Source of the DNA: an archaeon
GTDB taxonomy: Archaea > Iainarchaeota > Iainarchaeia > Iainarchaeales > DATDZZ01
Assembly: GCA_035288565.1 (NCBI GenBank)
Contig: DATDZZ010000052.1
Coordinates: 1 to 57,616 of the forward strand
Length of the DNA: 57,616 bases
Reading direction: 5' to 3'
Part shown: positions 1,002 through 35,933 of the stretch, one piece after another
Layout: every line of letters begins with the position of its first letter
Numbering within the stretch: the first letter of the stretch is position 1
Made by a program: the position numbers and the translations under genes
The notes under the pieces: generated by a model
Database searches by the model: none
What the model was told of the DNA's origin: nothing
Seen by the model: only the letters and a program-made list of their open reading frames with translations

Positions 1002-1102
1002 ATTCGGCTTTAAGCCGAATGTTTTCGTCAACCTTTTTCTAAAAGGTTGTTGTCCTGTTGCAAACAGGAGGGTTTTCGCCAACCTTTTTCTAAAAGGTTG
1101 TT
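1002..1102 (+). repeat. four consecutive perfect hairpins, including two copies of a 31-nt direct repeat (1021-1051, 1072-1102)
   Basis: attcggct/agccgaat (8 bp); caacctttt-tct-aaaaggttg (9 bp, twice); tcctgtt/aacagga (7 bp). The direct repeat gttttcg(t/c)caacctttttctaaaaggttgtt has one mismatch and a 51-nt period. The second copy overlaps the tfb stop codon. Confidence 0.8.
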
Positions 1103-2009
1103 AAGCTGCTACATCGATTTTCAGTCTTTTCTTTAACTCTCTGTACCTGTTCCGGATTGTTACTTCTGTTACGCCTGCAACATTGGCAACTTCTTTTTGA
1201 GTTCTTCTTTCTCCTTTCAAGAGTCCGGCAATGTATACTGCTGCCGCTGCTACTCCTGTTGGCCCTCTTCCGGAAATTAATCCATTGCCTATTGCTTCCT
1301 CTAAAATTTTTCTTCCTTCTTCTTGAACTTCTCCGCTCAAATTTAATTCAGAAGCAAATCTTGGAATGTAGTGGATTGGATTGGTTAAAGGGATTGATAA
1401 TTTTAATTCCCTTACAAGAAATCTGTAAGTTCTTCCAATTTCTTTTTTAGTCAATCCAGAAGCTTCAGCCATTTCATTCAGTGTTCTTGGAACATTGTAT
1501 GTTCTGCACACAGTGTAAAGTACAGCTGCTACGACTGCTTCAATTAATCTTCCTCTGATTAATCCTTTCTTTACAGTTTTTCTGTAAAGCAATGCTGCTG
1601 CTTCAATTAATTCTTCTGGAATATTTAAGTAAGAAGCAACCCTTCTTAATTCAGTTAAAGCTATTGATAAATTTCTCTGCATTGAGCTTGAAATTGAAGC
1701 CCTTTTATGCCATTTAATTAATCTGTACATTTGAGCTCTGCTTTTGCTTGACAGCTTGTTTCCCCTTAAATCAGTTCCTCTTCTGTCAATCATTGTCACT
1801 AAACCTTTATTCAGTTTAACGTATTTCATGGGGCTTCCTGTTCTTGCTCTTTCCTCAAACTGAGAAGAGTCAAAGGATCTCCATTCTTTTCCCACGTCAA
1901 TCATTTCATCCGAAATTACTTCTCCGCACTTCTGGCACACTAATTCCCCTCTTTCCTGATCGTGCTGAAATTTTTCACTATTGCATACAGGGCATTTTGT
2001 TTCGCTCAT
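1101..2009 (-). CDS. tfb: transcription initiation factor IIB (TFB)
   Basis: N-terminal Zn ribbon CPVC...CQKC followed by two cyclin-fold repeats. The ATG at 2009 is preceded by AAAGGTGGT (SD). The ORF track start at 2054 is probably an upstream extension. Confidence 0.93.
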   Translation of the reverse strand: MSETKCPVCNSEKFQHDQERGELVCQKCGEVISDEMIDVGKEWRSFDSSQFEERARTGSPMKYVKLNKGLVTMIDRRGTDLRGNKLSSKSRAQMYRLIKWHKRASISSSMQRNLSIALTELRRVASYLNIPEELIEAAALLYRKTVKKGLIRGRLIEAVVAAVLYTVCRTYNVPRTLNEMAEASGLTKKEIGRTYRFLVRELKLSIPLTNPIHYIPRFASELNLSGEVQEEGRKILEEAIGNGLISGRGPTGVAAAAVYIAGLLKGERRTQKEVANVAGVTEVTIRNRYRELKKRLKIDVAA

Positions 2010-2042
2010 TCGCTTACCACCTTTGTTTTTTGCTGCTAACGC

Positions 2043-2051
2043 TAAAATATA
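2043..2051 (-). promoter_or_regulatory. candidate TATA box for tfb
   Basis: TATATTTTA on the minus strand, about 36 nt upstream of the 2009 ATG. This spacing fits an archaeal TATA plus a short SD-containing leader. Confidence 0.3.
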
Positions 2052-2195
2052 CAAGAATCAATTAAATTTCCCGGAATTAAAAAAAGAGCAAAAATCATTA
2101 GCAACTAATATATAAGCTCCCAGTGTTCTTTATAAATGTTTTGTTAAAATTAGTTGTTTTAATTAAAAAATCAAAAAAAATTGGAAGAAATTTAA

Positions 2196-23028: not shown

Positions 23029-23076
23029 TAACTTTAAAAAACGATTTCAAAGGAAAATTTCTAGGAAGTTATTAAA

Positions 23077-23531: not shown

Positions 23532-24362
23532 TCAATATTCTCTGTGGAATTTCATTTCAAGGAATTTGATTATTTCTTCTGCCACATTAATTTTTGGGTG
23601 GGTTTCCTGAAATGCCTTGAATTGCGGAGTTCTGTTTGCTTCCAATACATAAAGCTTTTTTTTGTATAATGCAAGATCAACTCCGGCTATTTCCAGCTTT
23701 GCTGATCTTGCTGCAACTAAAGCAGTTTCTTCATGGCTTTTAGTTAATTTTTCCTTTTTTGCTTTTCCGCCTTTAGAGATATTTTTAATCCAGTTTCTTC
23801 CATGTTTTGAAAACATTCCGAGGACTTTTGCTCCAACGACAAGCACTCTGAATTCTTTTTCAAATTGAATGAATTCCTGTGCAATAAAATCTTTTTTTTT
23901 GTCAATTTTTTTAAGCAGTTCCTCAAGATTTTCCGGCTTTGTTCTGTACACTCCAGCGCCTCTTTTTCCCCCGATTTCTTTTACAACAATTTCTTTTGCA
24001 AAGCTTCCTTTTTTAATTAATTCAATTCCTGCTTTGTTTAAAAAAATTGTTTTAGGGATATTTAATCCTGCCTGCTTGAATTCACTGTAATGATTGAATT
24101 TATTTCCGCCTGATTCGTAGGCAATTTTTTCGTCAACTACATCAATGTTTTTTGAAATAAAGCTTTTTGCAATTGCTCTTCCCTGCACTGCCTTGCCTGC
24201 CAAGGGCCTGAATAAAACAATGTCATAAGATTCTTTTGAATCGAAGTCTGCAATAATTTCTTCAGGCTTTAAAACTGAAACAAAGTGCCCTCTTTTCAAG
24301 GCTTCTTTTTCTAATTGATTTATTTCCCATTGCTGTTCATTTGAAACAATTAAAATATTCAT
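23532..24362 (-). CDS. RimK/LysX-family ATP-grasp ligase (paralogue A1)
   Basis: VVKEIGGKRGAGV (Gly-rich loop), IAQEFI, NWIKNISKGGKA, VDLAL...YVLEANRTPQ (E-x-N Mg site). Confidence 0.85.
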   Translation of the reverse strand: MNILIVSNEQQWEINQLEKEALKRGHFVSVLKPEEIIADFDSKESYDIVLFRPLAGKAVQGRAIAKSFISKNIDVVDEKIAYESGGNKFNHYSEFKQAGLNIPKTIFLNKAGIELIKKGSFAKEIVVKEIGGKRGAGVYRTKPENLEELLKKIDKKKDFIAQEFIQFEKEFRVLVVGAKVLGMFSKHGRNWIKNISKGGKAKKEKLTKSHEETALVAARSAKLEIAGVDLALYKKKLYVLEANRTPQFKAFQETHPKINVAEEIIKFLEMKFHREY

Positions 24363-24366
24363 TTAA

Positions 24367-25239
24367 TCACTTTTTCTTCAATGCTTTTTTATACATTGTT
24401 TCCATTGCTTCTCTTGCAAACCTGCTTCCAAAATATTTTATTATGAATCCAGGAGCAAAGTTTATTTCAATTATTACTGGCCCTTTATCTGATTTAATGA
24501 AATCAACTGCGCATATATCTAATCCAAGCAGCTTAGCTGCATTAATTGCAATCTGTCTTTCCTTGTCAGTTACTTGCATTATTTTTGCCTGGCCTCCTCT
24601 GGAAACATTTGCCCTCCAGTCTCCTTTAGCTGCTTTTCTTTCCACTCCAATTGTTTTTGACCCAAAAACGTAAACTCTTTTGTCCGTTCCGTCATTTGGA
24701 ATAAATTTTTGTATTGTGACAAATTCCTTGAATACTTTCAATGTGTCGAGAACCGGCTTGAATTCTTTTTCTGACTGAGAAAGCATCACTCCTTTTCCTC
24801 CAAATCCTGCAACGAGCTTCACAACTAAAGGAAAATTAATTTTGCTTGAAATGGTTAAAGCAGTTTCAGGAGTAATACTCAAACCTGTTTCTGGAACAGG
24901 GAGATTTAATTCGCTTAAAACTTTAACTGCATAGTATTTATGGTTGGCAATTTGAAATCCCTGCACTGAATTAGGCGTGTAAACATTCGAGTTTTCCAGT
25001 AAATCAAGTATTATCTGCCCTAAAACAAAATCATTGCCGAAAAACCTTGCATAGCAGACATCGAATTCAGTTAAATCCATATTTTTGAACAAAATTTTTG
25101 TTTTTCCTGCCTCGCAATGGATTCTTATTTTTTCAATTGGGACAAATAAAACCGTGTCAAAGTATTTTTTCGCTGCTTCCAGAATCCTTTTTCTTGATTC
25201 CTTTGTTGACTTTGCCCCTGCAATCATTACAAACTTCAT
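24367..25239 (-). CDS. RimK/LysX-family ATP-grasp ligase (paralogue A2, most canonical)
   Basis: VVKLVAGFGGKGV, DWRANVSRGGQA (compare RimK FRSNLHRGG and LysX HWITNTARGGQAE), VDFIKSDKGPVIIEINFAPG. Confidence 0.88.
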   Translation of the reverse strand: MKFVMIAGAKSTKESRKRILEAAKKYFDTVLFVPIEKIRIHCEAGKTKILFKNMDLTEFDVCYARFFGNDFVLGQIILDLLENSNVYTPNSVQGFQIANHKYYAVKVLSELNLPVPETGLSITPETALTISSKINFPLVVKLVAGFGGKGVMLSQSEKEFKPVLDTLKVFKEFVTIQKFIPNDGTDKRVYVFGSKTIGVERKAAKGDWRANVSRGGQAKIMQVTDKERQIAINAAKLLGLDICAVDFIKSDKGPVIIEINFAPGFIIKYFGSRFAREAMETMYKKALKKK

Positions 25240-25243
25240 TTAA

Positions 25244-26077
25244 TCACTGAATTTTTTTTAAGTAAAAATTTGCCACTGCTCTGTATAAGTCTTTTCCTGA
25301 AGCTTTATTGAATAACTCAAAATCGATTAATGTTCTTATTCCAGTCACTTTTTCATTAATCATTTTAACTACTGCTATGTCAAGTCCGAGAACTTTTGCT
25401 GCGCTTACTGCAATACTTATTTGTTTTTCGCTTAAAATTGTTGAGGAGACTTTTTTTTCATGTTCAAATTTTTCAACGTTCCATTTTTTTTGAATTGCAA
25501 AAACTTCTTCTCCAATCACGGCAGCATAAACTAGGTCTCCTTCAATGAAGTCCTGCACAGTTACTGCATCTAACTCTGTTTTGATTCCGTTTGCAATAGC
25601 CATTAAGTTTCTTTTTGATTCAGCGACAAAGCTTTGAGTTTTGCTTGTCTTGACAAATGTTTTGAATATAACTGGAAAATTGAATTCATCTGAAATTGAA
25701 TCCAGTTGAGTTAAATCCTTTGTTATAACTGTTTTAGCCACCTTAATTCCTTTTGAGTTTAAGACAACATACTGGAAAGGAATATTTGAATTAATGTAAA
25801 AAGACTCTGGCTTCATCTGGCAGTAAATGCCTTTCTTCACAAGCTCATCAAGAAATGGTTCAGCGAAATCAACAAAGCTTGCATCAAGCTGCAGGAAGCA
25901 GCCATTAAATTTACTGAAGTCAAGCGACCCAAAAAAAATGCTGGTGTTTTTTCCTTTTGTATGCAGTGCAATATTTCCAATTTTTACATATGGAGCCTTA
26001 ACATTCACTTCCTCAAATGCTTTCTGCAGACGCTCGATTTCCTCTGTTTTTTTTTCTGAAACTAAAACTACTTCCAT
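25244..26077 (-). CDS. divergent ATP-grasp-like protein, probably catalytically degenerate (paralogue A3)
   Basis: Same length and position as its neighbours and keeps TVQDFI. The Gly-rich loop is TFVKTSKTQSF, the R.N..RGG motif is absent (KKWNVEKFEHEKK), and there is no E-x-N. Confidence 0.6.
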   Translation of the reverse strand: MEVVLVSEKKTEEIERLQKAFEEVNVKAPYVKIGNIALHTKGKNTSIFFGSLDFSKFNGCFLQLDASFVDFAEPFLDELVKKGIYCQMKPESFYINSNIPFQYVVLNSKGIKVAKTVITKDLTQLDSISDEFNFPVIFKTFVKTSKTQSFVAESKRNLMAIANGIKTELDAVTVQDFIEGDLVYAAVIGEEVFAIQKKWNVEKFEHEKKVSSTILSEKQISIAVSAAKVLGLDIAVVKMINEKVTGIRTLIDFELFNKASGKDLYRAVANFYLKKIQ

Positions 26078-26088
26078 AAACTGAACCT

Positions 26089-27645
26089 TTAACTGTTTTC
26101 TAATTCTTTTTCAGGATCCCAGATCTTTTTAACTCCCTTTTTTTCTTTCCTCATTTTTTCAAAAACAGGCTCTGAGAGAAGCTCATGAATTGTTGATCTT
26201 TTTCTGAGCAATTTAGTTAAATACCTTTCAAATGTTTTGCTTAAATTCTTGTAAGCTGAAATTTCATTGTATAAAAGCCCTTCTTTTATTCTCCAGTAAG
26301 AAGAAGTTCCTTTTTTTCCGAAAACCAAGTAGCCTCTTGATCTATCATCATGGTAGTCCGCCATTGCTTCTTCCATTAACCTGTAATCAATAAGGAATAC
26401 TCCGCTTGTCTGAGGAGAGGGGTCCATTATAATTAATTCGTCTCCTTCAATCCCAACACATAAAACATAGTGTCCTGATTTAGAAGATTTTTCAGGAAAC
26501 AGAACCGGTTTCTTAAACCACATTATCAGCATTGCTCCTTCCGAAAGCCAGTTCTTTGCTTCTTCCTTTAAATTATAAATTTTTTCAAAATTAATTTTTG
26601 CTCCAATGACATTTCCTTCTGTGAACTGCTTAACTGCTTCAATTAATTTATTCGGCTTTACTCCTCCCGGCTGTTTTGTTTCGCTTAAATTTCCAAGAAT
26701 TTCTTGAGTTGCTTTGTCAAATCCATAAAAGTTCAGCATCATTGCCGCGCTTGCGGGGCCGCAGTAGCTTCTGAGCTGAGTGACATAGTTTGCCCTGATA
26801 TTTTCAAGCCTTGATAAATCAGTGTTTGCTCTCTGGAAATAAATGTGTTTTGACAGCACTTCCTTGTTCGGAATTAAAATATTTGAGCCTGAGTCAAGCT
26901 TTATTAAAACGCCGTGGCTTGTAATTGAAAGAATTTCTCCTGAAAAATTCCCGATTCTGGTTCTCTGCCCCGCTTTAAACAAATTTTTTTCAATGTAAAT
27001 CCCTAAAAGAAAGTTTGCCATAGGGTCTTTGAAAACATAATAAGTCATTCCGCCCGCAATCAAAACGAACACAACAATTACTGAGGTAATAACTAATTCC
27101 ACGCTTGGAATATTTAAGCCGACAAAATTCAATGAAGAAATCAAAACAATCAGGAACAAGAAAATCTTCAATACAATTGATGAATTTGAGATAAACCTAT
27201 TGGTTAATCCGATGTTGCTTAAATAATTTCCGAATCCAAGCCTAAAAAATAAACCAATAATTAAATCCACAAACAAATTAATGAAAATCAGTCCAAGAAA
27301 CAATATTAAGATTAAACTCAATAAAGGGGGGATTAAGCTTAGGAGGTTTTCTAAAATAATTGTTGCCTGATTTACTCCAACATACCCTAAAGCAAGAACC
27401 GTAAAAGTAACCAGAAAAAACAATTCTAAAAGATTAGTGAAGGCGGTGACTGCGCTTCTGTTGACAAAATTAAATCTGTTATTTATTGCAATAAAAGCAA
27501 GCTTTAAAATTCTTCCAATAAGTATTCCTAAAACTATTGCCAAAACGGCCAAACCTATATTGGTTAAAACTGTTCCTGAAGCAATTGAATCAACCATAAT
27601 AAACAACTTTAATTGAATTACTTTAATTGAATTAATTGAAATCAT
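26089..27645 (-). CDS. fusion protein: MscS-like mechanosensitive channel core + C-terminal papain-like (peptidase C39-like) domain
   Basis: Five or more N-terminal TMs. MscS TM3/beta-domain pattern FKDPMANFLLGIYI...AGQRTRIGNFSGEILSITSHGVLIKLDSGSNILIPNKEVL. Then SYCGPASAAMMLNFYG (Cys), SGHYVLCVG (His) and IIMDPS (Asp). Confidence 0.75.
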   Translation of the reverse strand: MISINSIKVIQLKLFIMVDSIASGTVLTNIGLAVLAIVLGILIGRILKLAFIAINNRFNFVNRSAVTAFTNLLELFFLVTFTVLALGYVGVNQATIILENLLSLIPPLLSLILILFLGLIFINLFVDLIIGLFFRLGFGNYLSNIGLTNRFISNSSIVLKIFLFLIVLISSLNFVGLNIPSVELVITSVIVVFVLIAGGMTYYVFKDPMANFLLGIYIEKNLFKAGQRTRIGNFSGEILSITSHGVLIKLDSGSNILIPNKEVLSKHIYFQRANTDLSRLENIRANYVTQLRSYCGPASAAMMLNFYGFDKATQEILGNLSETKQPGGVKPNKLIEAVKQFTEGNVIGAKINFEKIYNLKEEAKNWLSEGAMLIMWFKKPVLFPEKSSKSGHYVLCVGIEGDELIIMDPSPQTSGVFLIDYRLMEEAMADYHDDRSRGYLVFGKKGTSSYWRIKEGLLYNEISAYKNLSKTFERYLTKLLRKRSTIHELLSEPVFEKMRKEKKGVKKIWDPEKELENS

Positions 27646-27714
27646 TTAAGTTAGTAATAAATATATTTAAAGAAAGCCCTTTTTAAAATCATTTAAAAAA
27701 ATTAAGTGAATTGA

Positions 27715-28530
27715 ATGAAGATATTAATTGTTTCAAATGAAAAGCAGTGGGAAGTTAAGCAGATTAAGAAAGAAGCAGTCAAGAGAAATCACAAAGCCGT
27801 AATGGTTTCACCAAAAAACCTTTCCAGCAAATTTTTGAATAAAAAAGTTGACGCAGTAATTGTCAGGGCAATAAGAGGAAACGGGGAATTAGTAAGAAAA
27901 AAGCTTCAAAAATTGCATTCAAGTTCAGTGAAATTGTTGGATGAATCATTATTGAAAGAAAAACCCAGAAACAAGTACTCAAATTTTTTATTATTTAAAA
28001 AAAATAAATTGTTTCAGCCGAAAACTTTTTTGTTTTCAAAGAAAAGAATTAATTTTTTTGAAAAGCAGTTCAACGAATTTGCTGTAATTAAAAATGTTTC
28101 AGGGAAGAGGGGTGAAGAAGTCTTCAAAGTCAATGTAAATGATTTGAGAAAATTTTCAAAAACACTTTCAAAAAGAAAAAAATATTTGATCCAGGAATTC
28201 GTTCCAATAAAAAAAGAGCTGAGGGTTTTAGTTTTAGGCAAAAAAGTTCTCGGAGTCTATGAAAAAAAATCATTTAACTGGAAAAAAAATATTGCGTTGG
28301 GGGCAGAAGCAAAAAAATTTACTTTAACCAATGAATTAAAGAAATTGTCATTAAGAGCTGCTTTAATTGTTCGAAGAGATTTTCTTGGGCTTGATTTGGC
28401 TTTAACCACTTCAGGGTACTTTATTTTAGAGGCAAACAGAAGCCCTCAATTTAAGGGATTTCAAAAACTTTATCCAAAAATCAATGTTGCGAAGGAATTG
28501 ATTCTTTTTTTGGAAAAACTCAAGGTTTAA
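27715..28530 (+). CDS. RimK/LysX-family ATP-grasp ligase (paralogue A4, closest to A1)
   Basis: MKILIVSNEKQWEVKQIKKEAVKR versus A1 MNILIVSNEQQWEINQLEKEALKR. VIKNVSGKRGEEV, LIQEFV, NWKKNIALGAEA, ILEANRSPQFKGF. Divergently transcribed from the A3-A1 operon. Confidence 0.8.
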   Translation: MKILIVSNEKQWEVKQIKKEAVKRNHKAVMVSPKNLSSKFLNKKVDAVIVRAIRGNGELVRKKLQKLHSSSVKLLDESLLKEKPRNKYSNFLLFKKNKLFQPKTFLFSKKRINFFEKQFNEFAVIKNVSGKRGEEVFKVNVNDLRKFSKTLSKRKKYLIQEFVPIKKELRVLVLGKKVLGVYEKKSFNWKKNIALGAEAKKFTLTNELKKLSLRAALIVRRDFLGLDLALTTSGYFILEANRSPQFKGFQKLYPKINVAKELILFLEKLKV

Positions 28531-34680: not shown

Positions 34681-34751
34681 TGCGGCTACCGGGATTCGAA
34701 CCCGGGCTAAAAGCTTGGGAAGCTCTTATGCTGCCACTACACCATAGCCGC
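34681..34751 (-). tRNA. tRNA-Gly (anticodon CCC)
   Basis: Hand-folded cloverleaf: acceptor GCGGCTA/TAGCCGC, anticodon stem AGAGC/GCTTT, loop TTCCCAA, T arm CCGGG-TTCGAAT-CCCGG, discriminator A. No encoded CCA and no intron. Confidence 0.9.
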
Positions 34752-34784
34752 GATCAAAACTGAACACTTGGCAGTAGCCGATAA

Positions 34785-34868
34785 TGCAGGAGGCAGGATT
34801 CGAACCTGCGAAGGCACTAAGCCAACAGATCTTGAGTCTGTCCCCTTTGGCCGCTTGGGTACTCCTGC
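34785..34868 (-). tRNA. tRNA-Leu (anticodon CAA)
   Basis: Acceptor GCAGGAG/CTCCTGC, anticodon stem ACAGA/TCTGT, loop CTCAAGA, long variable arm, T arm GCAGG-TTCGAAT-CCTGC. Confidence 0.9.
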
Positions 34869-35084
34869 AAACTTTTAAGAAAAGTTTGATCAAAACGCAC
34901 CACTTTCAGTGCTGCAAACTTTTAAGAAAAGTTTGATCAAAAATCAGAACCTTTGGTTCCGATACCTTCCTTTCAACCTTTAAAAAAGGTTGGCGAAAAT
35001 ACATCACCTTTGTGCAACTTAATCTATTTCAGCCACGTATTGACTGAAAGGAAATACGTGTCTTCAGACCGTCCGGCTGGACGG
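34865..35084 (-). repeat. hairpin-rich spacer between tRNA-Ser and tRNA-Leu, with a 31-nt direct repeat (34865-34895, 34912-34942) and about seven stem-loops
   Basis: ctgcaaacttttaagaaaagtttgatcaaaa occurs twice (47-nt period). Hairpins: caaactttt/aaaagtttg (twice), gaacc/ggttc, caaccttt/aaaggttg + gcgaaaat, cacgtatt/aatacgtg, ccgtcc/ggacgg. Confidence 0.75.
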
Positions 35085-35085
35085 A

Positions 35086-35168
35086 CGCAGGGAGAGGGAT
35101 TCGAACCCTCGTAGCCCGAAAGCTCCAGCTTAGCAGGCTGGCCCGTTTGACCACTCCGGCATCCCTGC
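35086..35168 (-). tRNA. tRNA-Ser (anticodon GCT)
   Basis: Acceptor GCAGGGA/TCCCTGC, anticodon stem CCAGC/GCTGG, loop CTGCTAA, long variable arm, T arm GAGGG-TTCGAAT-CCCTC, discriminator G. Confidence 0.9.
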
Positions 35169-35221
35169 ATTAATTAATTGCTAAGTATTTAGGAGAACTT
35201 TAACTTTAAAAAACAAATTGA

Positions 35222-35385
35222 ATCCGCCGTCCCGCCGGCAAGGCGGAAGCACAGCCTTTGCGTGCTGCAGATTGCCAGCGAATTTATTCATTGAAGTGGT
35301 GTCGAGCCTGAAAGGCGAAGACAGCACGGATTGCCAGCGAATCTGTTCGCTGCGCCGGATCTCTCCGGCGAAGGAAAGCTTTTTT
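35222..35385 (+). ncRNA. GC-rich structured RNA candidate (independent sRNA or a long 5' leader of the 35409 gene); class unknown
   Basis: About 58% G+C by hand count over 35221-35380, in a genome of roughly 30%. Contains a 14-nt direct repeat, several GC stems and a terminal T6. An A/T-rich TATA-like stretch lies upstream. The ORFs on both strands here look like GC artefacts. Confidence 0.45.
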
Positions 35386-35408
35386 AATTTCAAGCTGGTT
35401 TAAGGTGT

Positions 35409-35933
35409 ATGGCAGAAGAATTAAGGCATGTTCATGAAGAGGAGCCTGAAACTAAGGAGCAGGTTGCTGAGGAGCTTGTAATTGAATTAAAAAAAGACTT
35501 TGAAGAAGAAATGAAGTCAATTGATATTAGGTTGAAGGATTTGGCTTTAATTCTTTTGGGTTCTATTTTGGGTTTTTCAGGTAATTCATTGCTTGGCTTG
35601 TTTGATTATTTTTTTCCAGAATTTTATGGAACAGCTATTTTAGTTCTTTTGTTTTTCTCTATTTCGGCAGCCATAATGATTATTTACTCTTTTTACTTTT
35701 ATCAAGGCAAGAAGAAAAAGGTTGCAGAGATGTTTGAGAACATTCAAAAGATTGAAAGAAAGCTAAAAGAGGAAGGGGAAACAGTTGAAGAGATGTCAAA
35801 AAAAATCCCAGATCCAGAGTTCAGTGCTTTAAAGAAAGTGGAAGAAGAAGTGAAATTTGCAAAAGAAAAAGCAATTGAAGCAGAAGCAAAAAAAGTAAAA
35901 GAAGAAATGAAAAAAACAATAAATAAAAAATAA
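35409..35933 (+). CDS. hypothetical membrane protein (2 TM) with charged coiled-coil flanks
   Basis: ATG preceded by AAGGTG. No family recognised. Confidence 0.5.
   Translation: MAEELRHVHEEEPETKEQVAEELVIELKKDFEEEMKSIDIRLKDLALILLGSILGFSGNSLLGLFDYFFPEFYGTAILVLLFFSISAAIMIIYSFYFYQGKKKKVAEMFENIQKIERKLKEEGETVEEMSKKIPDPEFSALKKVEEEVKFAKEKAIEAEAKKVKEEMKKTINKK

What the first reader, a model, noticed from the sequence alone, without database searches (positions are those of the whole stretch)
35222..35385. About 160 nt island of ~58% G+C with stem-loops and internal repeats: uncharacterised structured RNA or riboswitch-like leader
Seen: hand counting gives 93 G+C in 35221-35380, against a visibly AT-rich background. 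The only other comparably GC-rich stretches I noticed are the tRNAs. Elements: ccgcc...ggcgg (35224-35245); gcac/gtgc hairpin (35249-35265); an imperfect 32-nt hairpin at 35296-35327 with apical GCC-UGAAA-GGC and an AGCA on its 3' side; a perfect 14-nt direct repeat gattgccagcgaat (35270-35283 and 35329-35342), both copies able to pair with the single ttcgctg at 35346-35352, which allows mutually exclusive helices; the hairpin gccgga-tctc-tccggc (35354-35369); and then aaggaaagc-TTTTTT. An A/T-rich TATA-like stretch (ctttaactttaaaaaac, 35198-35214) precedes it. The next gene (35409) has an SD but no obvious promoter of its own. Inference: it is either a stand-alone sRNA ending at the T6, or a 5' leader with terminator/antiterminator logic controlling the downstream 2-TM protein. 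I see loose resemblance to SRP RNA helix 8 (GNRA-like loop plus AGCA). I also see loose resemblance to the P4-P5 arm of TPP riboswitches (CCGGAUCUCUCCGGCGAAGGAAA versus CUGGAUAAUGCCAGCGUAGGGAA). I cannot confirm either by eye.
Basis: partly seen in the sequence, partly recalled or inferred. Interest (0 to 1): 0.65.

Follow-up and report, generated by a model that had tools for sequence, protein, structure and literature searches.

The report
Mosaic hairpin repeat, not a riboswitch
The GC-rich island is real and strongly hairpin-forming, but it matches no known RNA family; its central hairpin is a repeated sequence found at many other places in the same metagenomes and is missing from this very spot in sister strains, so it looks like a cluster of lineage-specific palindromic repeat units, not a riboswitch or SRP/TPP-like RNA.

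Summary
Observation confirmed.

Interpretation mostly not supported.
- Rfam 15 finds nothing credible, even at E<=10. There is no hit to SRP, TPP or RNase P, on either the window allele or a shorter strain allele.
- The overlapping ORFs have no homologues.
- The island folds as five independent hairpins in a row, not as a multi-helix junction.
- The central 59-nt unit (core hairpin 35296-35327 plus one copy of the 14-nt repeat) is absent at this locus in about 99.5%-identical strains, seen in three independent data sets.
- The core hairpin is multicopy: depth 280-330 against 8-12 for its flanks in four runs, with at least 8 different flanking contexts. Long contigs carrying other copies track this genome's depth.
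- Copies are mosaic. The same hairpin modules, joined by GATTGCC-like linkers, occur in different orders.
- Two hairpin types differ by three compensatory pairs.
- The "switch" helices arise from the duplication. The T6 sits where other genes in the window have their TATA box.

Best reading (about 0.55): a REP/BIME-like or MITE-like mosaic of lineage-specific palindromic repeats in an AT-rich, DPANN-like archaeon, possibly transcribed. A multicopy small-RNA gene family remains a live rival (about 0.25). No transcript data exist.

The parts
35202..35214 (.). A/T-rich TATA-like box AACTTTAAAAAAC between tRNA-Ser (minus strand) and the island. It could serve either direction.
   Evidence: Read directly. 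An identical 13-mer lies at 23030-23042, but two matches are what chance gives.
35224..35246 (+). Module X: CCGCC...GGCGG hairpin. The tighter form is ccgcc-GGCAA-ggcgg at 35232-35246, with a GNRA-like GCAA loop on the plus strand.
   Evidence: Another copy (R6) has CCGU-CGGCGAA-ACGG, which is one compensatory C-G to U-A change.
35249..35265 (+). Hairpin P1a: GCACAGC-CUUU-GCGUGC. It is related to GCACCACTTTCAGTGC in the 47-nt repeat upstream of tRNA-Leu.
   Evidence: (family D10).
35270..35283 (+). Direct repeat copy 1, GATTGCCAGCGAAT. It consists of the linker GATTGCC plus the 5' arm of an H3-type hairpin.
35284..35342 (+). 59-nt presence/absence unit, equivalently 35270-35328. It holds TTATTC-ATTGAAG, the core hairpin, CAC(G/A), and repeat copy 2. 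It is missing in strains L097 and L101 and in run X8.
   Evidence: Alignment. Joint 35269->35329 'skips 59, both 14'. The deletion junction appears as a loose end in X3.
35296..35327 (+). Core hairpin, the multicopy module: GUGGUGUC-GA-GCC-UGAAA-GGC-GAA-GACAGCAC.
   Evidence: Fold z -4.4 on plus (-16.3 kcal/mol) against -11.5 on minus. Depth is 280-330 against 8-12 for the flanks in X1-X4.
35335..35352 (+). Hairpin H3: cagcgaa-UCUG-uucgcug. The loop is UCUU in all other strains.
35353..35370 (+). Hairpin H4: cgccgga-UCUC-uccggcg. It is the same hairpin type as H3, with three compensatory pairs. The loop's fourth base varies (C, U or G) between copies.
35380..35390 (+). TTTTTTAATTT. It is a possible oligo-T terminator for a plus-strand island transcript, and it sits at the TATA position (-29 to -19) of the downstream gene.
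   Evidence: Copy R5 also ends in ...GC-TTTTTT.
35409..35933 (+). It is context only, not part of the element.
   Evidence: No Pfam family. No homologue outside its own 90% cluster.
35083..35169 (-). tRNA-Ser(GCU), divergent neighbour. Context only.

Best explanation
The island is a mosaic cluster of short, GC-rich palindromic repeat units. They belong to a family specific to this AT-rich, DPANN-like archaeal lineage.

Architecture. Five independent stem-loops stand in a row: X, P1a, core, H3 and H4. They are joined by a recurring 7-nt linker, GATTGCC or GATCACC. The core hairpin is the high-copy member of the family. At this locus it sits inside hairpin H3 as a 59-nt unit bounded by a 14-16 nt direct repeat.

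Dynamics (shown). The unit is gained or lost between near-identical strains. Modules are found recombined in different orders at other loci.

Mechanism (inferred). The units behave like REP/BIME-type or very small MITE-type non-autonomous elements. They persist and spread through one of two routes: a trans-acting enzyme that recognises the hairpin, or ectopic recombination, gene conversion or slippage at the shared linkers and repeats. When transcribed they would form stable stem-loops, which could punctuate or protect transcripts.

What it is not. It is not a ligand-sensing leader for the downstream gene, and it is not a member of any described RNA family.
For: 1. No family match. Rfam at gathering score finds only the three tRNAs. 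At E<=10, neither the window allele nor the deletion allele gives a credible hit.
2. No coding signal. The overlapping ORF translations have no homologue at E<=10.
3. Beads-on-a-string structure. The deletion allele folds into four consecutive local hairpins, and the window allele adds the core hairpin.
4. Presence/absence polymorphism of exactly 59 nt, between direct repeats, in strains about 99.4-99.7% identical over 1.2 kb. L097 (a JGI assembly) and L101 (an ENA assembly) lack it. L092-L096 and L100 have it. A Logan contig in run X8 shows the same joint, and X3 shows the deletion junction.
5. Multicopy. Logan word depth over 35292-35331 is 280-330 against 8-12 in unique flanks, in runs X1-X4.
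6. At least 8 different flanking sequences abut diverged copies.
7. Long contigs carrying other copies have this genome's depth in each run. X1: 7.7, 9.9 and 9.2 against 8.3-11.7. X2: 5.35, 4.0, 4.5 and 5.4 against 5.4. X4: 5.2, 6.4, 6.7 and 5.7 against 5.7. X8: 3.1 against 2.7.
8. Mosaicism. Copy R5 reads GATTGCC-H3, a 42-nt linker, core, GATCACC-H4type, a tail, then T6. Copy R6 reads H4type, CAGCGAAT, core, GATTGCC, then an X-like hairpin.
9. H3-type and H4-type units keep all 35 cells paired, with 3 of 7 pairs changed on both sides.
10. Clustered SNPs. The window differs from all other strains at 35328 and 35345, two differences within 18 nt. That is half of the 4 differences seen in 1218 nt. 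This pattern fits conversion from a paralogue.
11. The surrounding tRNA spacer region shows further module-level indels between strains.
12. Lineage restriction. The core words occur only in the same groundwater/soil runs. No GTDB species representative carries the 20-mer.
Against: - No complete second copy could be fetched. Copy number rests on unitig depth in metagenomes.
- The copy-number estimate is unstable: about 30 copy equivalents in X1-X4 but only 2-4 in the low-coverage runs X5, X6 and X8. In X7, copy R5 is present while this locus is not. Some copies may therefore sit in related genomes.
- About 25 kb of extra sequence adjoining the window held no further copy.
- The core lacks the GTAG or CGTC tag of RAYT-type REPs (PMC3733652).
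- No transposase, integrase or cas gene lies in the window.
- The indel could be simple slippage between repeats rather than mobility.
- Three features fit RNA-level selection, and so a real small RNA: GNRA-like loops on the plus strand (GCAA or GCGA in X, UGAAA in the core), a more stable plus-strand core fold, and compensatory pairs. The island also has a TATA-like box upstream and a T6 downstream.
Confidence: 0.55

Rival explanations
1. A stand-alone small RNA gene on the plus strand, about 150 nt and running from roughly 35233 to 35385. It would belong to a multicopy family of modular small RNAs. Members would share the core hairpin as a protein- or RNA-binding handle and differ in accessory hairpins. 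Transcription would start from the A/T box at 35202-35214 and end at the T6.
For: - A TATA-like box lies about 25 nt upstream of the first stems, with a T6 at the end.
- Copy R5 also ends in hairpin H4, a tail and T6. It is preceded by a palindromic A/T module like the one in front of tRNA-Leu here.
- GNRA-like loops occur only on the plus strand, and the plus-strand core fold is stronger.
- Compensatory pairs separate the H3 and H4 types.
- The island is as GC-rich as the tRNAs in a 33% GC genome.
Against: - No RNA run holds it.
- The A/T box matches chance expectation and could equally serve tRNA-Ser on the other strand.
- The T6 coincides with the downstream gene's TATA position.
- The most conserved module is dispensable at this locus in sister strains.
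- Module order is shuffled between copies, which is unusual for a functional RNA scaffold.
- Whole-transcript folding is barely better than shuffles (z -1.6).
Confidence: 0.25
2. A cis-regulatory 5' leader or riboswitch that controls the downstream 2-TM gene, by alternative pairing of the two 14-nt repeats with TTCGCTG.
For: Alternative helices are possible in the window allele. The island lies directly upstream of gene 35409, on the same strand.
Against: - The alternative helix exists only in the insertion allele. Strains with the same gene have a single plain hairpin.
- No riboswitch family matches.
- The element recurs beside unrelated flanks, and the gene has no homologue outside its own 90% cluster.
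- The gene has its own TATA-like box after the island.
- The architecture is a row of simple hairpins with no junction or pocket.
- Hairpin-dependent intrinsic termination is not the established archaeal mechanism (general knowledge).
Confidence: 0.04
3. A degenerate or orphan CRISPR-like mini-array. The repeat would be GATTGCCAGCGAAT..ATTGAAG (27 nt), followed by a 32-nt spacer and a second repeat, giving a 59-nt period.
For: The 59-nt period is typical CRISPR geometry. The first repeat ends in ATTGAAG, like the 8-nt crRNA handle of type I and III systems (from memory). H3 looks like a repeat hairpin. Strains differ by exactly one repeat-plus-spacer unit.
Against: - There are only two repeats, alike over 14-20 nt only.
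- The 'spacer' is itself the multicopy conserved element.
- No cas gene was found among the roughly 40 larger ORFs scanned with Pfam, out of 61 ORFs of at least 120 aa in the window.
- Other copies show different module orders.
Confidence: 0.04
4. A tRNA-related feature: a split, permuted or multi-intron tRNA gene, or a BHB-bounded intron-like insert.
For: - It lies in a tRNA cluster.
- TTGAATCCGCC-GTCCCGC-C at 35218-35237 resembles a tRNA T-loop to 3'-end fragment.
- Elsewhere in the runs, tRNA 3'-half-like sequences abut the A/T palindromic module.
- ARAGORN at 80% threshold proposes a tRNA-Ala with a 65-nt intron.
- A BHB-like pairing exists between the 14-nt repeat and 35386-35402.
Against: - The ARAGORN model has a mismatched acceptor stem and no T-loop consensus. 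At the default threshold nothing is found.
- BHB-like hits are as frequent as in shuffles and elsewhere in the window: 2 observed against 0.4-0.8 expected.
- There is no GGTTCGAAT T-arm in the island.
Confidence: 0.05

Closest known systems
REP elements and their mosaic clusters (BIMEs) of bacteria. REP-like palindromes have also been reported in archaea (PMC12306157, PMC3733652, PMC2817692).
   Same: Short (32-40 nt), imperfect, GC-rich palindromes. Extragenic, highly similar between copies and multicopy. Found in clusters with other short conserved motifs in varying order. Species- or lineage-specific.
   Different: No GTAG or CGTC tag. No RAYT gene seen (only 57 kb plus about 25 kb examined). 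Units here all lie on one strand rather than in alternating orientation. The host is an AT-rich DPANN-like archaeon. The unit is bounded by a 14-16 nt direct repeat.
MITEs and modular mini-repeats, such as Neisseria Correia elements and pneumococcal BOX and RUP elements. Named from memory, not tested here.
   Same: Non-autonomous and intergenic. Presence/absence polymorphism between strains. Direct repeats flank the variable unit. Modular composition, as in boxA-(boxB)n-boxC.
   Different: The variable unit is only 45 nt plus the repeat. The only inverted repeat is the hairpin stem itself. A 14-16 nt duplication is atypical for DDE transposition. No parent IS has been identified.
Multicopy small-RNA families found as GC-rich islands in AT-rich archaea, such as the Hgc RNAs of Klein, Misulovin and Eddy 2002. 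Cited from memory; those families are in Rfam.
   Same: A GC-rich island in an AT-rich archaeal genome. Stable hairpins. Several paralogous copies.
   Different: No Rfam family matches. There is no transcript evidence. The core is dispensable at this locus.
CRISPR repeat-spacer units
   Same: A 59-nt period, a repeat with an internal hairpin, and strain differences of one unit.
   Different: Only two partial repeats. The spacer is the conserved part. No cas genes.

Membership tests
TPP riboswitch (RF00059) | Covariance-model match at or near the gathering score | tested here: not met
   No TPP hit, even at E<=10 with permissive filters, on 35150-35450 or on the deletion allele.
TPP riboswitch (RF00059) | Conserved CUGAGA junction and a three-way junction architecture (from memory) | tested here: not met
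   The sequence has no CUGAGA. Folds give a row of separate hairpins.
Archaeal SRP RNA (RF01857) | Covariance-model match. About 300 nt with helices 5, 6 and 8. | tested here: not met
   No hit at E<=10. The island is about 160 nt.
Archaeal SRP RNA (RF01857) | Helix 8 with a GNAR tetraloop and a symmetric loop carrying AGCA (from memory). A single essential copy. | tested here: not met
   The hairpin has a UGAAA pentaloop and a 2x3 GA/GAA loop, and its AGCA lies inside the paired lower stem. The hairpin is absent in sister strains and multicopy elsewhere.
REP/BIME-like repeats (criteria as listed in PMC12306157) | Extragenic, palindromic stem-loop, short (about 14-40 nt) | tested here: met
   Intergenic between tRNA-Ser and gene 35409. 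A 32-nt imperfect palindrome with z -4.4.
REP/BIME-like repeats (criteria as listed in PMC12306157) | Highly similar copies, many per genome | tested here: inconclusive
   Diverged copies (1-8 differences in 40-60 nt) with at least 8 flank contexts. About 30 copy equivalents in X1-X4 but 2-4 in X5, X6 and X8. The same-genome inference rests on matching contig depths. No second copy lies in the window.
RAYT-type REPs (PMC3733652) | GTAG or CGTC tetranucleotide at one end of the palindrome | tested here: not met
   Neither tag occurs in or next to 35290-35335 on either strand.
RAYT-type REPs (PMC3733652) | A cognate RAYT (IS200/IS605-like Y1 transposase) in the genome | not testable with these tools
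   Only the window and about 25 kb of neighbouring sequence could be read. None was found there.
MITE | Terminal inverted repeats plus target-site duplication | tested here: inconclusive
   The variable unit is flanked by a 14-nt direct repeat (16 nt in other strains). The only inverted repeat is the hairpin stem.
MITE | Presence/absence polymorphism at a locus | tested here: met
   L097, L101 and run X8 lack the 59-nt unit. L092-L096, L100 and the window have it. The direction of change (gain or loss) is not resolved.
CRISPR array | Three or more regularly spaced near-identical repeats with unique spacers, and cas genes nearby | tested here: not met
   Two repeats alike over 14-20 nt. The spacer is multicopy. 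No cas domains were found among the roughly 40 larger ORFs scanned, out of 61 ORFs of at least 120 aa in the window.
Archaeal C/D-box or H/ACA guide RNA | C (RUGAUGA) and D (CUGA) boxes at the ends, or an ACA box 3' of a pocket hairpin (from memory) | tested here: not met
   Only an 8.5-bit chance alignment to sR28. There is no terminal C/D pair and no ACA after the hairpins.
BHB-bounded archaeal intron | Helix, 3-nt bulge, 4-bp helix, 3-nt bulge, helix at both boundaries | tested here: inconclusive
   One BHB-like pairing (14-nt repeat with 35386-35402) was found. The frequency equals chance: 0.43 per shuffle and 0.79 per 300 nt of the window.
Stand-alone archaeal sRNA gene | A discrete transcript with defined ends | not testable with these tools
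   No RNA run holds the stretch.

The most novel reading that the evidence does not exclude
The core is a new kind of very small mobile hairpin element in DPANN-like archaea. The unit is about 45 nt plus a 14-16 nt attachment or duplication site. It inserts site-specifically into the loop of a cognate H3-type hairpin and has recently amplified in one strain: about 30 copy equivalents against about 4 in the strain that lacks it at this locus. The unit's two ends (CAGCGAAT... and ...CAGATTGCC) are a circular permutation of the target (CAGATTGC|CAGCGAAT). That is the signature of integration of a circular intermediate, or of an RNA-mediated event. Alternatively, the modules could be pieces of a new multicopy family of modular small RNAs processed at GAUUGCC linkers.
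Probability: 0.2. Interest if true: 0.7.

Novelty: new variant of a known kind. Interest (0 to 1): 0.42.

Why it matters
DPANN-type archaea have small, streamlined genomes, and their non-coding content is almost unexplored. A GC-rich, structure-conserving, multicopy hairpin family that is gained or lost between 99.5%-identical strains would be a marker of ongoing genome dynamics in such organisms. It would also be a practical cause of assembly breaks: Logan contigs end at the core.

If the family is transcribed, it would be a candidate new small-RNA family.

For annotation pipelines there is a caution. A GC-rich island with nice hairpins and alternative helices upstream of a gene is not enough to call a riboswitch. 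Here population variation shows the 'switch' to be a by-product of an insertion or duplication.

Tried and rejected
- Known RNA families. Rfam at gathering score on the whole window, and at E<=10 on the island and on the deletion allele: nothing credible.
- tRNA. ARAGORN at default finds only tRNA-Ser. At 80% threshold it proposes an intron-containing tRNA-Ala with a bad acceptor stem and T-arm. Rejected.
- BHB intron search on both strands: hits at chance frequency.
- K-turn, C/D, H/ACA, hammerhead and SRP helix-8 motifs, checked by eye against remembered consensus: the registers do not fit.
- Coding. A concatenated translation of the open frames over the island has no homologue at E<=10.
- Orthologues through the downstream protein. 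None in GTDB, and none in the protein collection beyond its own 90% cluster.
- Collection scans, early patterns. GAAGACAGCACGGATTGCC and TGAAAN{1,4}GAAGACAGCACGGAT in genome, metagenome and viral contigs gave only chance hits in unrelated bacteria and coding genes. Both patterns contain the window's minority allele G35328, as I learned later. These negatives are therefore weak.
- Collection scans, SNP-free pattern. The 20-mer CCTGAAAGGCGAAGACAGCA in GTDB also gave only chance hits.
- Nearest GTDB relatives by CysRS are only 54-57% identical.
- Genome walking outside the window, through cluster members and encoding contigs, covered about 25 kb. It found no further copy, only ordinary tRNAs.
- The identical 13-mer AACTTTAAAAAAC at 23030 is not more than chance.
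- No other GC-rich hairpin of the H3, H4, X or core loop types exists elsewhere in the window. There is no diverged second copy either.
Full report

Yes. Positions 35222-35380 hold 93 G+C in 159 nt (58.5%). The window averages 32.9%. Apart from the three tRNA genes on the minus strand (34681-34751 Gly, 34784-34869 Leu, 35083-35169 Ser), only a few stretches reach 0.52, the cut-off used, and those were not examined further.

- the CCGCC/GGCGG pairings;
- the GCAC/GTGC hairpin;
- the 32-nt imperfect hairpin at 35296-35327;
- the perfect 14-nt direct repeat at 35270 and 35329;
- the two tetraloop hairpins at 35335-35352 and 35353-35370;
- the T6.

The core hairpin and H4 fold far better than shuffles (z -4.4 and -4.1); H3 is weaker (z -3.0, 2 of 200 shuffles fold as well). 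The island as a whole does so only modestly (z -2.3 on plus, -2.9 on minus).

**2. Host and neighbourhood**

The window encodes Hef (helicase plus ERCC4), TFIIB, a histone, form-III-like RuBisCO, pentose-phosphate and shikimate enzymes, and aminoacyl-tRNA synthetases. This is an AT-rich uncultivated archaeon.
- Its sequence occurs in groundwater and soil metagenome runs.
- Its nearest GTDB representatives are only 54-57% identical in CysRS and are unnamed or DPANN-type MAGs.
- No transposase, integrase or cas gene was found among the roughly 40 larger ORFs scanned with Pfam, out of 61 ORFs of at least 120 aa in the window.
- The downstream 174-aa protein has no Pfam family and no homologue outside its own 90% cluster.

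**3. Known families**

Rfam 15 at gathering score finds only the tRNAs. At E<=10 with permissive filters, the island gives only 8-17-bit chance alignments to unrelated families. Nothing matches SRP, TPP, RNase P, 5S or any riboswitch. The same holds for the naturally occurring shorter allele.

The other checks were also negative:
- ARAGORN at default finds no tRNA. Its low-threshold intron-containing 'tRNA-Ala' has a mismatched acceptor stem and no T-loop.
- A bulge-helix-bulge search gave hits at chance frequency.
- The overlapping ORFs (35218-35403 plus, 35181-35393 minus) have no homologues.

**4. The decisive evidence: population and paralogue data**

*(a) Depth.* Logan contigs from four runs were laid on the region. 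Word depth jumps from 8-12 in the unique flanks to 280-330 over 35292-35331, then falls off on both sides.
- Contigs break at this core.
- At least eight different sequences abut diverged copies.
- The long contigs that carry other copies have the same depth as this genome in every run: X1 7.7-9.9 against 8.3-11.7; X2 4.0-5.4 against 5.4; X4 5.2-6.7 against 5.7; X8 3.1 against 2.7.

This argues that they belong to the same population genome rather than to unrelated organisms. High depth is seen only in short unitigs, as expected for a collapsed repeat.

*(b) Mosaic copies.*
- Copy R5 reads: A/T palindrome, GATTGCC-H3, a 42-nt linker, core, GATCACC-(H4-type hairpin), a tail, then T6.
- Copy R6 reads: H4-type hairpin, CAGCGAAT-TTATTC, core, GATTGCC, then an X-like hairpin.
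- Another copy shortens the apical GCC/GGC stem to G/C.

The modules of the island therefore recur in different orders, joined by GAT(T/C)(G/A)CC linkers.

*(c) Strain alleles.* A strain variant of the downstream protein gave access to ten assemblies of the same locus, 99.3-99.7% identical in nine of them; the tenth, L092, scores 97% only because it lacks one copy of the 47-nt repeat.
- Two of them (L097 from JGI, L101 from ENA) lack exactly 59 nt between the direct repeats. They read ...GTGCTGCA-GATTGCCAGCGAAT-CTTTTCGCTG-CGCCGGATCTCTCCGGCG..., which is one intact H3 hairpin followed by H4.
- The same joint appears as 'skips 59' in a Logan contig of run X8.
- It also appears as a junction fragment in X3.

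The most conserved, most abundant part of the island is thus dispensable at this locus.

*(d) Clustered differences.* The window differs from all other strains at 35328 (G against A, which extends the repeat to 16 nt in the others) and at 35345 (the H3 loop). These two differences lie within 18 nt and make up half of the 4 differences seen in 1218 nt. That pattern suggests conversion from a paralogue.

*(e) A dynamic spacer region.* The tRNA spacer next door is equally unstable. A 47-nt repeat is present once or twice, and about 86 nt of alternative mosaic sequence lies between tRNA-Gly and tRNA-Leu in some strains.

**5. Structure**

The deletion allele folds as four consecutive local hairpins (X, P1a, H3, H4). 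The window allele adds the core hairpin.

H3-type and H4-type units are one hairpin type: a 7-nt linker, a 7-bp stem and a UCUN loop. They differ by three compensatory pairs, with all 35 cells paired. The X hairpin shows one further compensatory change between copies.

This indicates selection for the hairpins themselves, in RNA or in single-stranded DNA. It cannot tell which. There are no G-U pairs to fix the strand.

Weak hints favour the plus strand: GNRA-like loops (GCAA or GCGA in X, UGAAA in the core) and a stronger plus-strand core fold (-16.3 against -11.5 kcal/mol).

**6.

- The 'mutually exclusive helices' are a by-product of the 59-nt unit sitting inside H3. They are absent in strains with the same downstream gene.
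- The T6 plus AATTT sits at -29 to -19 of ATG 35409. That is where RuBisCO and several other genes of the window carry their TATA-like box. The gene therefore does have a plausible promoter, and the T6 is not necessarily a terminator.
- The upstream A/T box could serve tRNA-Ser as well. Its exact repeat at 23030 is no more than chance.
- No RNA data exist for these communities in the index.

**7. Best explanation and rivals**

I conclude, with confidence of about 0.55, that the island is a mosaic cluster of lineage-specific palindromic repeat units. It is REP/BIME-like in behaviour, or a very small MITE-like unit. The core hairpin unit is gained or lost between strains.

*Shown:* multicopy status, mosaicism, the indel, the compensatory pairs, and the absence of any family match.

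*Inferred:* that most copies are in one genome, that the unit is mobile or spreads by recombination at the shared linkers, and any role in transcripts.

It fails the RAYT-REP tag test (no GTAG or CGTC), and no cognate enzyme was seen. I therefore file it as 'works like', not as a member.

Rivals:
- The main rival (about 0.25) is a transcribed multicopy small-RNA family. It is not mutually exclusive with the best explanation.
- The leader/riboswitch, CRISPR-like and tRNA-related readings each get about 0.05 or less.

**8. Caveats**

- Copy number is uncertain: about 30 equivalents in X1-X4 but only 2-4 in X5, X6 and X8. This could be a strain-specific burst, or extra carriers in the richer samples.
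- In X7, copy R5 is present without this locus.
- No complete second copy could be fetched, and about 25 kb of adjoining sequence had none.
- My first collection scans used patterns containing the window's minority base at 35328. They are weak negatives. The SNP-free GTDB scan was also negative, and the core words occur only in the same set of runs. The family therefore appears lineage-restricted.

Noticed in passing
window 34865-34958 (also 34974-35000): A 47-nt tandem repeat lies directly upstream of tRNA-Leu on the minus strand. Each unit holds the A/T palindrome AAACTTTTAAGAAAAGTTT, then GATCAAAA and a small hairpin (GCACCACTTTCAGTGC). The palindrome module has depth 200-650 against about 8-20 for its flanks in runs X1 and X3, so it is itself a high-copy intergenic module. 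Strain L092 has one copy instead of two.
   Followed up: partly
window 1019-1099: Two copies, 51 nt apart, of GTTTTCG(T/C)CAACCTTTTTCTAAAAGGTT lie just downstream of the TFIIB gene (1101-2054, minus strand), flanked by further small palindromes. Nearly the same 30-mer precedes copy R5 of the repeat family. In run X3 the related A/T palindromic module (the 34914-34946 form) also follows a stop codon. It may be a bidirectional oligo-T terminator or promoter cassette.
   Followed up: partly
window 34760-34783, versus L093, L094 and L100: Between tRNA-Gly and tRNA-Leu, some near-identical strains carry about 86 nt of different mosaic sequence. It includes a copy of the module GATCAAAAATCAGAACCTTGGTTCCGATACC..., which the window has at 34935-34974.
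   Followed up: no
loose ends next to window 34864 and 34946 in runs X1 and X3: At other loci the A/T palindromic module directly abuts tRNA 3'-half-like sequences, starting about at tRNA position 38. One example is ...GCAGGATGGAGGTCGTGTGTTCAAATCACACCGGGC. Another is truncated in its T-loop. These could be split or intron-containing tRNA genes, or tRNA fragments used as repeat modules.
   Followed up: no
window 35218-35237: TTGAATCCGCC-GTCCCGC-C, at the left edge of the island, has the spacing of a tRNA T-loop, T-stem 3' arm, acceptor 3' arm and discriminator. Copy R6 has GGATTGCC-GTCCCGT-C in the same arrangement. The GATTGCC linker might therefore derive from a tRNA 3' fragment.
   Followed up: no
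window 35031-35086 (minus strand, downstream of tRNA-Ser): Two stable hairpins follow the tRNA-Ser 3' end: GUCCGUCCAGCCGGACGGUC at 35067-35086, and an 8-bp CACGUAUU/AAUACGUG hairpin at 35031-35063. The word CAATACGTGGC recurs in the linker of copy R5.
   Followed up: no
window 23532-28530: A cluster of four RimK-like ATP-grasp genes (23532-24362, 24367-25239, 25244-26077, 27715-28530) surrounds a 518-aa protein that combines a mechanosensitive-channel beta domain with a C39-like peptidase domain (26089-27645). An 81%-identical 93-nt inverted repeat links 24301-24388 and 27685-27776.
   Followed up: no
L123 11343-12137; L122 6945-7021 and 9639-9721: Contigs that share an identical HhH-GPD glycosylase with the window's left-hand neighbourhood show a different gene order on one side. 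They also carry a DDE_Tnp_1 transposase, a tRNA-Met and a second, different tRNA-Ser(GCU). This points to a rearrangement between strains, or to a closely related second genome in the samples.
   Followed up: no
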